From Eledone cirrhosa (lineage: Eukaryota), in assembly GCA_964016885.1 (NCBI GenBank), contig CAXHJY010000513.1, positions 1-28,965 of the forward strand: a stretch of 28,965 bases of DNA, in the 5' to 3' direction. The position numbers and the translations under genes were made by a program. The notes under the pieces were generated by a model. That model was given only the letters and a program-made list of their open reading frames with translations. It did not search any database and was not told the origin of the DNA. Below, piece after piece: positions 7,461-9,669 of the stretch (positions are counted from its first letter, which is position 1; each line of letters starts with the position of its first letter).

Positions 7461-9664
7461 TATTAGAAAGATCGAGTATCGCAAAATCGGCGCACGAGTT
7501 CACGATAAACAAAATTCGAAATGAGCGGCAGAGGGCTCAATAATTCAGATGAATCAGAGCTATAACTATCGTTAAAATACCGTCACATATAGAACAAGTC
7601 TACAATCAACCATACGATAAAAAATCGATAATAGAAGATTCGGGACAAACAGATAAAAAATATCAATAAAACAATACATCAATAATTTAAATGAATGTAA
7701 AATCATACCCGGACCCACTAGAAAGGTGTTAAATCTAGCTTCATGGGTTTCTGTAAATCCTTAGACTGTACTCTATCAGCTCACATATAAATATAAAAGC
7801 CTACTAGAGTAAGCGGAACGGAGTTTACTTTCTCAACGAGCTTTTTTCCTAGCGGAAAAGGGGCTAACTACCAGTGAAAAACGCACATGGCATTAGACAA
7901 GGGAGATAACCTCTATATCCGCGAAAACAATTCGAGGGAATGTGGAAATACACATATCGAATAAGAGTGCTCAATAGGCATGTTAAAATAAAACAAAGCT
8001 ATTCATCACTCAATAGAATCGACAAAAAATGAGCAATAAAATTAACTGGTGGATAGCTATATCCAGAGCTAAAAATATTAGAAAGATCGAGTATCGAAAA
8101 ATCGGCGCACGAGTTCACGATAAACAAAATTCGAAATGAGCGGCAGAGGGCTCAATAATTCAGATGAATCAGAGCTATAACTATCGTTAAAATACCGTCA
8201 CATATAGAACAAGTCTACAATCAACCATACGATAAAAAATCGATAATAGAAGATTCGGGACAAACAGATAAAAAATATCAATAAAACAATACATCAATAA
8301 TTTAAATGAATGTAAAATCATACCCGGACCCAATAGAAAGGTGTTAAATCTAGCTTCATGGGTTTCTGTAAATCCTTAGACTGTACTCTATCAGCTCACA
8401 TATAAATATAAAAGCCTACTAGAGTTAGCGGAACGGAGTTTACTTTCTCAACGAGCTTTTTTCCTAGCGGAAAAGGGGCTAACTACAAGTGAAAAACGCA
8501 CATGGCATTAGACAAGGGAGATAACCTCTATATCCGCGAAAACAATTCGAGGGAATGTGGAAATACACATATCGAATAAGAGTGCTCAATAGACATGTTA
8601 AAATAAAACAAAAGCTATTCATCATTCAATAGAATCGACAAAAAAATGAGCAATAAAATTAACTGGTGGATAGCTATGTCCAGAGCTAAAAATATTAGAA
8701 AGATCGAGTATCGAAAAATCGGCGCACGAGTTCACGATAAACAAAATTCGAAATGAGCGGCAGAGGGCTCAATAATTCAGATGAATCAGAGCTATAACTA
8801 TCGTTAAAATACCGTCACATATAGAACAAGTCTACAATCAACCATACGATAAAAAATCGATAATAGAAGATTCGGGACAAACAGATAAAAAATATCAATA
8901 AAACAATACATCAATAATTTAAATGAATGTAAAATCATACCCGGACCCACTAGAAAGGTGTTAAATCTAGCTTCATGGGTTTCTGTAAATCCTTAGACTG
9001 TACTCTATCAGCTCACATATAAATATAAAAGCCTACTAGAGTAAGCGGAACGGAGTTTACTTTCTCAACGAGCTTTTTTCCTAGCGGTAAAGGGGCTAAC
9101 TACCAGTGAAAAACGCACATGGCATTAGACAAGGGAGATAACATCTATATCCGCGAAAACAATTCGAGGGATGTGGAAATACACATATCGAATAAGAGTG
9201 CTCAATAGACATCGATTCTATTGAGTGATGAATAGCTTTTGTTTTATTTTAACATGTCTATTGAGCACTCTTATTCGATATGTGTATTTCCACATTCCCT
9301 CGAATTGTTTTCGCGGATATAGAGGTTATCTCCCTTGTCTAATGCCATGTGCGTTTTTCACTGGTAGTTAGCCCCTTTTCCGCTAGGAAAAAAGCTCGTT
9401 GAGAAAGTAAACTCCGTTCCGCTTACTCTAGTAGGCTTTTATATTTATATGTGAGCTGATAGAGTACAGTCTAAGGATTTACAGAAACCCATGAAGCTAG
9501 ATTTAACACCTTTTCTAGTGGGTCCGGGTATGATTTTACATTCATTTAAATTATTGATGTATTGTTTTATTGATATTTTTTATCTGTTTGTCCCGAATCT
9601 TCTATTATCGATTTTTTATCGTATGGTTGATTGTAGACTTGTTCTATATGTGACGGTATTTTAA

Positions 9665-9669
<5 letters not shown>
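7461..9669. repeat. Tandem array of a 615-617-bp unit (starts 7461, 8076, 8693; third unit truncated at about 9212) followed by an inverted ~458-bp partial copy (9212-9669)
   Basis: TATTAGAAAGATCGAGTATCG recurs at 615 and 617 bp spacing; from 9212 the sequence is the reverse complement; bounded by (TA)n on both sides; units differ by only a handful of bases. Confidence 0.95.

What the first reader, a model, noticed from the sequence alone, without database searches (positions are those of the whole stretch)
7461..9669. Young ~616-bp tandem-plus-foldback array with a variant hammerhead in every unit (retrozyme-like)
Seen: about 2.85 direct copies then an inverted 458-bp copy, all inside (TA)n, with no ORF in the supplied track inside the unit. 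Each unit (read on + at 9449-9541; on - at about 7695-7786, 8310-8401, 8925-9017) has CUGAUAGA-GUA(c)AGUC[uaag]GAUUUAC-A-GAAA-CCCA(ugaag)CUAGA[loop]UCUAG-UGG-GUC|CGGGU. Stem II is good, stem III is long and bulged, and the site is GUC. The core is non-canonical (CUGAUAGA) and stem I is displaced (AUGUGAG could pair with UUUACAU 10 nt downstream). Established: animal non-LTR retrozymes are tandem non-coding units with one HHR each and yield circular RNAs; PLEs form partial tandems with inverted ends. Inference: a rolling-circle reverse-transcribed copy of a ~616-nt circular RNA with a possibly new HHR variant.
Basis: partly seen in the sequence, partly recalled or inferred. Interest (0 to 1): 0.75.

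Follow-up and report, generated by a model that had tools for sequence, protein, structure and literature searches.

The report
Hidden long-armed hammerhead in jumping repeat
This is one insertion of a 616-base, protein-free jumping repeat found at hundreds of places in this animal genome; each unit folds into a predicted self-cutting RNA with an unusually long arm, many genomic copies break off right behind the predicted cut, and the long runs of identical units were likely copied from small RNA circles by a Penelope-type enzyme.

Summary
The array is real: 2.85 direct units plus an inverted ~458-bp arm inside (TA)n. It belongs to a young family with 747 exact 3' ends in the genome and many older subfamilies. 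All 40 top arrays share one 3' end, while 5' ends vary, as in target-primed reverse transcription.

The real motif uses UUGAGAA (U3-A8), 85 nt upstream of GAAA. It is the unconstrained minimum-energy fold and is 94% paired across 35 relatives with compensatory changes.

5' ends pile up just behind that site (15 of 88 young ends; 12 of 48 old arms), consistent with cleavage in vivo. Arrays reach 22 near-identical units, which fits rolling-circle copying, but later expansion is not excluded. Cleavage, the circle and expression are untested, and the partner PLE is only a candidate.

The scan has already noted other retrozyme families and long-stem-II hammerheads in this genome. Verdict: a new variant of the known non-LTR retrozymes.

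The parts
7461..9669 (-). One insertion: about 2.85 head-to-tail units (RNA sense is the - strand; fixed 3' end at 7461) plus an inverted 5' arm, inserted in (TA)n
7461..8075 (-). Unit 1 (3'-most, 615 bp), ending ...GATCTTTCTAATA|TATATA, the 3' end shared by 40 of 40 arrays
8076..8692 (-). Unit 2 (617 bp)
8693..9212 (-). Unit 3, 5'-truncated (0.85 unit)
9212..9669 (+). Inverted arm (unit positions ~55-511). Its outer end lies about 6 nt before the conserved bulged stem; likely a second priming event from the other DNA strand
9394..9529 (+). Predicted type I hammerhead. Stem I 9394-9398/9525-9529; core box UUGAGAA 9399-9405 (U3-A8); extra A 9406; stem II 9407-9415/9475-9482 closing a 59-nt insert; extra A 9483; GAA 9484-9486; stem III 9487-9490/9520-9523 with a bulged extension; predicted cut after C9524
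7701..7846 (-). Hammerhead copy in unit 1 (box 7830-7836; cut between 7712 and 7711)
8316..8461 (-). Hammerhead copy in unit 2 (box 8445-8451; cut between 8327 and 8326)
8933..9078 (-). Hammerhead copy in unit 3 (box 9062-9068; cut between 8944 and 8943)
9456..9463 (+).
9525..9533 (+). CGG|GTATGA: possible 5' splice donor overlapping stem I, 4 nt behind the cut (GTAAGT, GTAAAT or GTGAGT in other subfamilies); inferred only
7533..7560 (-). Conserved bulged stem GCUC-hairpin-NN-GAGC, about 72-100 nt before the 3' end; possible RT recognition signal (inferred; coordinates derived from unit positions 517-544)
7443..7460 (.). (TA)n target at the 3' side; it is also the tail of an older, unrelated repeat at ~7390-7442
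9670..9720 (.). (TA)n target at the 5' side

Best explanation
The array is one insertion of a protein-free, multi-copy 616-nt retroelement (a non-LTR retrozyme) whose unit folds into a predicted U3-A8 hammerhead with a very long stem II, and which is likely cut into unit-length RNA, circularised and copied into (TA)n by a Penelope-like RT/endonuclease. Shown by sequence: one fixed 3' end, variable 5' ends, (TA)n targets, near-identical units within arrays, a covarying three-stem fold, and a pile-up of 5' ends right behind the GUC. Inferred steps: (1) arrays are transcribed; (2) the hammerhead cuts after GUC, giving linear 616-nt units, some of which are ligated to circles; (3) a PLE protein nicks (TA)n and starts cDNA at one internal site about 250 nt 3' of the cut, using UAAUA/TA microhomology; (4) on a cut template the RT runs off the RNA 5' end, leaving ~230-250-bp copies (or that plus whole units), and on a circle or uncut multimer it keeps going, up to 22 units; (5) here a second primer from the other DNA strand made the inverted arm.
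For: Fixed 3' end in 40 of 40 best arrays; 747 exact ends; the same end register in the ~85% and ~65-69% identical subfamilies. The hammerhead is on the strand that the fixed end marks as RNA. The unconstrained MFE and centroid of 9388-9537 are this fold. Across 35 relatives 94.1% of cells pair (stem I 94%, stem II 91% with 4 compensatory pairs, stem III 99%), against at most 54% for slid controls. TTGA.[AG]A is kept in 39 of 49 old copies not selected on it, with N7 free. 5' ends: 15 of 88 young ends fall in the 27 nt behind the cut, 0 in the next 27 nt and 7 in the 27 nt before. In a 68-end subset 15 were seen against 3.3-4.5 expected, scan P 1e-4 to 6e-3 with TA-microhomology weighting; L073 begins exactly at +1. 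Older subfamilies: 12 of 48 arms that reach the zone stop at +5..+25, and none of the 36 that pass stops in the 79 nt upstream. Units differ by 0.8 nt within arrays against 21 between. 12 of 50 multi-unit arrays carry variants fixed in all units and seen in no other sampled array. Arrays reach 22.4 units, several with 12-15 of 12-15 fetched units identical. The cut junction is intact in 201 of 205 units. The genome holds many GIY-YIG matches (150 scored of 10,596 candidates), including a young RT+GIY-YIG family (96-98% identical, 4,207 exact ends) that ends in the same CTTTCTAATA|TA and has a U3-A8 hammerhead box.
Against: No cleavage, RNA or circle was observed. The core has an extra A between C11.1 and G12 as well as the usual extra base after A9, which could slow it. 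The fold is not exceptional by energy alone (z -1.49; 14 of 200 shuffles fold as well). The rows were picked with a pattern for the box and GAAAC/GGGUC, and stem III is invariant, so it gives no covariation. Only about 14-25% of passes stop at the cut. Arrays also change after insertion: a ~65-unit old array, a variant scattered over 5 units of L077, and a period-3 pattern in L041 that fits either a trimer circle or a duplication. A splice-donor-like GT 4 nt behind the cut could set the same boundary. No homology to 50 sampled PLE loci was found beyond the terminal 10 nt and short weak hits, and older subfamilies end differently. Frangieh 2024 found the hammerhead dispensable for PLE insertion in vitro and no reads ending at its site.
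Confidence: 0.68

Rival explanations
1. Same element and hammerhead, but no circle: RT copies linear, partly cut multi-unit transcripts, and long homogeneous arrays grow after insertion by unequal exchange.
For: A ~65-unit old array, scattered shared variants in L077 and L139 and period-3 variants in L041. The long-array clade has about 5-fold fewer stops everywhere, not only at the cut (0.18 vs 0.92 per kb). Li 2026 proposes local amplification by unequal crossover.
Against: Many independent, very young loci are 10-22 units long with almost no unit differences, and each still keeps the canonical 3' end and a truncated 5' end. Only 1 unit-specific variant was shared between arrays among the 23 arrays of 3 or more units, and none among the 12 long arrays re-examined.
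Confidence: 0.25
2. The 5' boundary is an intron end, not a ribozyme cut: a donor at +4 and a branch-point-like CUAAU at the fixed 3' end, followed by YAG 10-22 nt on, make the ~250-nt insertions copies of an excised intron.
For: GT at unit position 369 is the best donor-like site in the unit by a matrix recalled from memory. Subfamilies read GTAAGT, GTAAAT or GTGAGT. Old-family ends start at +5. A PLE intron spanning the pLTR boundary is known (Craig 2021 section 10; Schostak 2008 passages). The L237 PLE has the same layout.
Against: GGGU is already fixed by stem I pairing, and CTAAT is what TA microhomology would favour. The AG was required by my search pattern, and the 85% subfamily has CTACT. 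L073 starts at +1. No spliced exon junction appeared in the 100 listed of 132 matches. The model does not make full-unit tandems.
Confidence: 0.12
3. One reading: a variant hammerhead with a CUGAUAGA core and a displaced stem I.
For: The letters are fixed in the young and ~85% subfamilies. An insertion after A6 has a natural, low-activity precedent (Perreault 2011). The displaced stem I is 79% paired.
Against: U4, G8 and A9 vary across subfamilies, stem II is 42% paired, and the MFE does not form it.
Confidence: 0.03
4. The tandem or fold-back at this locus is an assembly artefact on a small unplaced contig.
For: The window is a whole 29-kb contig, and its units carry 3-5 private differences each, more than most arrays.
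Against: The same architecture occurs on chromosome-scale contigs, including a second two-armed copy, L062. Both outer ends sit in (TA)n, and the outer end of the inverted arm lies at a structured site.
Confidence: 0.04

Closest known systems
Metazoan non-LTR retrozymes (Cervera and de la Pena 2020, PMC7229834, parts 2 and 4 of 6 read; Li, Clavereau and Pollet 2026, bioRxiv 10.64898/2026.07.22.740005, parts 1-3 of 5 read)
   Same: Non-coding tandem units, one type I hammerhead per unit, low GC, no LTR/PBS/PPT, PLE proposed as mobiliser; 616 bp lies inside the 51-972 bp range of Li 2026.
   Different: U3-A8 core with a ~78-nt stem II domain and an extra A on both sides, missed by Rfam. The fixed 3' end and the 5' pile-up at the cut site are not described in the parts read. 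Cleavage and circles are shown for coral, mussel and axolotl, not here.
Penelope-like elements with C-terminal GIY-YIG and their pLTR hammerheads (Cervera and de la Pena 2014, PMC4209133, parts 1-2 of 4; Craig 2021, PMC8557442, passages and section 10; Frangieh 2024, PMC11167929, parts 1-2 of 4)
   Same: 5' truncation, tandem and inverted 5' arm, (TA)n targets, internal RT start, a U3-A8 variant and an extra base after A9 (known in Schistosoma PLEs), possible intron over the unit boundary.
   Different: No ORF; stem III is long and closed rather than minimal or palindromic; no alignable parent pLTR found.
MRC1 and other non-autonomous Chlamys PLEs (Craig 2021, section 10)
   Same: Non-autonomous, multi-copy head-to-tail insertions.
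   Different: Those are algal, resemble their autonomous partners at the 3' end, and belong to a clade mostly lacking canonical hammerheads.
Discontinuous and core-variant hammerheads (Perreault 2011, PMC3088659, passages and section 8; Clec2 as summarised in PMC6765202, passages)
   Same: U3-A8 covariation is natural and reported active in vitro; long inserts between core halves occur.
   Different: An extra A between C11.1 and G12 (or an A.A pair at 10.1-11.1) is not named in the section read, which names U10.1-U11.1, A6a and U13a.

Membership tests
Type I hammerhead ribozyme | 5' core box Y3-U4-G5-A6-N7-R8-A9 | tested here: met
UUGAGAA at 9399-9405; TTGA.[AG]A in 39 of 49 old copies, N7 variable.
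Type I hammerhead ribozyme | GAAA followed by stem III (A15.1-U16.1) and an NUH triplet | tested here: met
   GAAAC...GUC; 99% paired but invariant and partly selected by pattern; also present in most cores printed from 3'-anchored old copies.
Type I hammerhead ribozyme | Stems I and II closing the three-way junction | tested here: met
   Stem I 94% and stem II 91% paired, with compensatory pairs; MFE and centroid.
Type I hammerhead ribozyme | G10.1-C11.1 directly flanked by A9 and G12 | tested here: not met
   One extra nucleotide on each side (9406 and 9483).
Type I hammerhead ribozyme | Match to an Rfam hammerhead model | tested here: not met
   No hammerhead among 24 matches at E<=10.
Type I hammerhead ribozyme | Self-cleavage after H17 | not testable with these tools
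   Indirect only: 5' ends pile up behind the site.
Non-LTR retrozyme | Tandem non-coding repeats with a type I hammerhead in each unit | tested here: met
   Four copies in the window; no ORF of 80 aa or more; 32 of 90 unselected copies have 2 or more units.
Non-LTR retrozyme | Dispersed multi-locus family with retrotransposition marks | tested here: met
   747 exact ends; fixed 3' and variable 5' ends.
Non-LTR retrozyme | Expressed as linear and circular unit-length RNA | not testable with these tools
   Needs RNA data, which were not available here.
Non-LTR retrozyme | Target-site duplication | tested here: inconclusive
   Not discernible inside (TA)n.
Autonomous Penelope-like element | RT + GIY-YIG ORF | tested here: not met
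   No ORF in the unit; sampled copies consist of units and end in flank, not examined for ORFs one by one.
Non-autonomous PLE derivative | Sequence similarity to the pLTR or 3' end of an autonomous PLE | tested here: inconclusive
   Only a shared terminal CTTTCTAATA with the L237 family; no alignment to 50 PLE loci; 50 loci taken from 150 scored of 10,596 candidates.
Non-autonomous PLE derivative | 5' truncation, partial tandems, inverted 5' arm, (TA)n target | tested here: met
   inverted arms in 2 of the 130 young arrays checked.
Plant LTR retrozyme | Type III hammerheads in two LTRs | tested here: not met
   Type I fold in head-to-tail units, no LTR layout.

The most novel reading that the evidence does not exclude
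The genome holds a fossil record of a ribozyme at work. Insertions end at the hammerhead cut when the template was linear and run to 22 laps when it was a closed circle. One young clade, marked by a changed core (UUGAC(A/G)A-C), almost stopped producing cut-site ends (2 of 241 passes vs 12 of 86) and makes arrays five times longer (median 3,346 vs 644 bp), so a few ribozyme bases would tune how many copies each jump deposits. The cut also sits on a splice donor and the RT start on a branch-point-like motif, so cutting, splicing and priming may compete on one RNA.
Probability: 0.25. Interest if true: 0.75.

Novelty: new variant of a known kind. Interest (0 to 1): 0.52.

Why it matters
Rolling-circle reverse transcription of retrozyme circles by PLE enzymes is proposed in the papers read but not shown there, and the role of PLE hammerheads is called unclear (Craig 2021; Frangieh 2024 saw no RNA ends at the site). 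This family gives a defined priming site, a genomic signal at the predicted cut in two age classes, and a natural pair of clades with short and long arrays, so the model becomes testable with a small construct. It also shows a hammerhead form that Rfam and short-stem-II descriptors miss, and a decoy that misleads reading by eye. The class itself is known, and the scan has noted similar families in this genome, which caps the interest.

Tried and rejected
For a while I concluded that there was no hammerhead at all; the whole-unit alignment then showed the UUGANAA box.

L262 and L277 look like canonical CUGACGA relatives but are G>A variants of a CUGACGG subfamily. A second CUGAUGA box near unit position 67 has no stem partners (by eye). 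Hairpin, twister, pistol, HDV-like and tRNA-promoter readings were considered by eye against recalled consensus and dropped.

The link between the GTACTGTC variant and long arrays is real, but that base lies in the stem II insert; the clade is better marked by UUGAC(A/G)A-C. It is one clade, so cause is not shown. First-lap-only tests give P=0.055 and 0.085.

No RNA holder was listed, and run X1 gave only scattered short pieces. No spliced junction copy was seen among 100 listed of 132 matches. A 22-nt antisense hit to one PLE family (E 0.045) was treated as chance. The 3.3-kb-period locus L394 has no ORF above 150 aa.

RNAalifold on A1 recovered only invariant pairs, because that alignment lacked the upstream arms. 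The Lunse 2017 paper on PLE hammerhead variants (PMC5785218) is not held, so core variants described there could not be compared. No supplements were read; those of Craig 2021 (Files S1, S2) and Cervera 2014 may hold long-stem-II or U3-A8 precedents.

Rows dropped: L076 and L150 end at N gaps and were censored; 5 of 90 short copies could not be assigned to a clade, values of -80 or below mark the library edge, not real ends.

Full report
OBSERVATION. The window is all of contig C540 of a 3.0-Gb animal genome. The array is as described: units at 7461-8075, 8076-8692 and 8693-9212, an inverted arm to about 9669, 98-99% identity, and (TA)n on both sides. No ORF of 80 aa or more lies within 7537-9800. 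Rfam finds no hammerhead in 7000-10200 at E<=10.

FAMILY. A DNA search scored 40 of 1,833 candidates and gave 40 loci at 98-100% identity. Read on the window's minus strand, all 40 end at the same base (...GATCTTTCTAATA|TATA) and start at variable positions. That junction occurs 747 times, control 0. I took 90 of the first 100 listed ends as a sample not selected for length: 54 exceed one unit, 32 reach two, and the longest has 22.4 units. Older relatives exist: a ~85% subfamily (402 pattern matches), many 60-85% subfamilies (1,812 matches; alignment), and 512 old-type 3' ends. They keep the same end register. A fixed 3' end with ragged 5' ends in a microsatellite is the footprint of target-primed reverse transcription (established knowledge). 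An RT start inside the RNA has been shown for a PLE (Frangieh 2024, parts 1-2 read). Inverted 5' arms and (TA)n bias are PLE traits (Craig 2021, passages). Inverted arms were found in 2 of the 130 young arrays checked.

THE HAMMERHEAD. Across subfamilies the box reads CUGAUAGA, CUGAUAGU, CUGACGGU, CGGACGGU, CGGACAGU or CAGACAGU, and the proposed stem II is 42% paired in 34 sequences. A canonical-core pattern in that register gives 27 matches against 25 in the control. The whole-unit alignment shows a conserved TTGA about 85 nt upstream of GAAAC. With it, a complete type I hammerhead forms: stem I GCUCG/CGGGU, UUGAGAA (U3-A8), an extra A, stem II GUAAA-UCC/GGA-UUUAC closing a 59-nt insert, an extra A, GAA, stem III ACCC/GGGU with a bulged extension, and C at 9524. 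This is the unconstrained MFE and centroid of the window sequence, and most of 35 relatives fold the same way or within a few kcal/mol. Pairing across the 35 is 94.1%, with 29 cells changed on both sides (shuffles 9.3), against 21-54% for slid controls. Caveats: those rows were picked with a pattern for the boxes, and the z-score of the fold is only -1.49. In old copies not picked on the box, 39 of 49 keep TTGA.[AG]A. U3-A8 is a known natural core (Perreault 2011, section 8; Cervera 2014, part 1), and an extra base after A9 is typical of PLE hammerheads. The extra A before G12 is not named in the parts read. Two alternative helices are also conserved: one between the decoy box and the 3' arm of stem II (87% paired, 3 compensatory pairs) and one between CGGGU and a downstream ACCCG (96%, nearly invariant). 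They are incompatible with the active fold and could hold a circle or a cut end inactive (inference).

5' ENDS MARK THE CUT. Of 88 uncensored young 5' ends, 15 fall in the 27 nt behind the GUC, none in the next 27 nt and 7 in the 27 nt before. In the 68-end subset outside the GTACTGTC clade, 15 were seen against 3.3-4.5 expected; scan P was 1e-4 to 6e-3 depending on how strongly TA microhomology is weighted. One copy starts exactly at +1 (L073). In older subfamilies sampled by their 3' ends (70 arms from 69 loci), 12 of the 48 arms that reach the zone stop at +5 to +25, and none of the 36 that pass stops in the 79 nt upstream. The simplest reading is an RNA 5' end at the cut, trimmed back to the first TA match with the target. 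A stall at structure or an intron end cannot be excluded by position alone.

CIRCLE OR NOT. Units differ by 0.8 nt within arrays and 21 between. Several long arrays have 12-15 fetched units without a difference. 12 of 50 multi-unit arrays carry variants fixed in all units and absent from other sampled arrays, and the cut junction is intact in 201 of 205 units. This needs a single-unit bottleneck followed by precise multiplication, as a circle would give. Later turnover also occurs: a ~65-unit old array, scattered variants in L077 and a period-3 pattern in L041. One clade (UUGAC(A/G)A-C, 29 of 90) has a median of 3,346 bp against 644 bp and stops at the cut in 2 of 241 passes against 12 of 86. 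Its stops elsewhere are also 5-fold rarer, the first-lap test gives P=0.085, and it is one lineage.

PARTNER. The genome is rich in GIY-YIG matches. [quoted passage not shown] Its Cys linker looks Neptune-type by recalled motif; no tree was built. The match is 10 nt only, older subfamilies end otherwise, and neither BLAST nor my covariance model links the unit to 50 PLE loci (the L249 hits are a broken copy of this family). A bulged stem GCUC-hairpin-NN-GAGC is conserved with compensation at unit positions 517-544, and the window's inverted arm ends about 6 nt before it, the only such end among the loci fetched. An earlier AI note ties this stem type to Hydra-clade PLEs, so the partner is open.

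POSSIBLE INTRON. GT 4 nt behind the cut is the best donor-like site in the unit by a recalled matrix, and subfamilies read GTAAGT, GTAAAT or GTGAGT. The fixed 3' end resembles a branch point followed by YAG. PLE introns over the pLTR boundary are known. No spliced copy was seen in 100 listed of 132 matches. This stays a rival.

NOVELTY. The class is known. Searches for retrozyme+cephalopod, octopus+Penelope+hammerhead, Penelope+lariat+branch point (0 papers) and Penelope+cleavage site+rolling circle+truncated+genomic copies (one review, listing only) showed no description of this family or of cut-site truncation; subscription papers and supplements were not seen. The scan has no look-alike of this sequence. 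It has noted several other retrozyme families, long-stem-II and U3-A8 hammerheads, and cut-site-marked ends in a 520-570-nt element in this genome; these are unchecked AI notes. I had found the UUGA core. Verdict: a real, well-supported new variant of the non-LTR retrozymes with a corrected ribozyme; interest 0.52.

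Noticed in passing
window ~7390-7442 (+), also ~2470 and ~4980; L014, L052, L067, L072, L137, L151, L171 and others: A very abundant, unrelated (TA)n-targeting repeat with GCCGTCGAAACGGC-loop-GCCGTC and an end at TTTTCCTA|TATA, often folded back head to head. 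It looks like the GAAAC-stem III-GUC half of another hammerhead; our array sits in its TA tail.
   Followed up: partly
L237 (G000:C1:145869317-145877571), L238, L242, L244, L245: A young PLE family (4,207 exact 3' ends) whose pLTR has a U3-A8 minimal hammerhead with the GUA triplet on a donor-like GTAAAG, and whose 3' end CTAAT|A lies about 19 nt before an AG just upstream of the ATG.
   Followed up: partly
G000:C1:81.71-81.75 Mb (L172-L189): About 65 tandem units of the ~85% subfamily: a retrozyme array turned satellite.
   Followed up: no
L041 (G000:C4:38632523-38636519): A 6.5-unit array with private variants repeating every three units: a trimer circle or a three-unit duplication.
   Followed up: partly
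L062 (G000:C28:26798596-26799687): A two-armed insertion in which both arms start at the canonical 3' end and meet a few bases behind the predicted cut.
   Followed up: partly
L442 and about 25 of 100 listed matches: A subfamily lost one G behind the cut and reads CCG|GTGAGT, a consensus splice donor, at the cost of a stem I pair.
   Followed up: no
window ~9770-10165 and L249:8970-9365: By eye, the right flank of the array is a copy of another interspersed repeat ending in (TA)n.
   Followed up: no
L216, L229, L233, L236, L240, L245, L246, L250-L252: Several other short hammerhead-like motifs with canonical CUGANGA boxes near PLE endonuclease matches.
   Followed up: no
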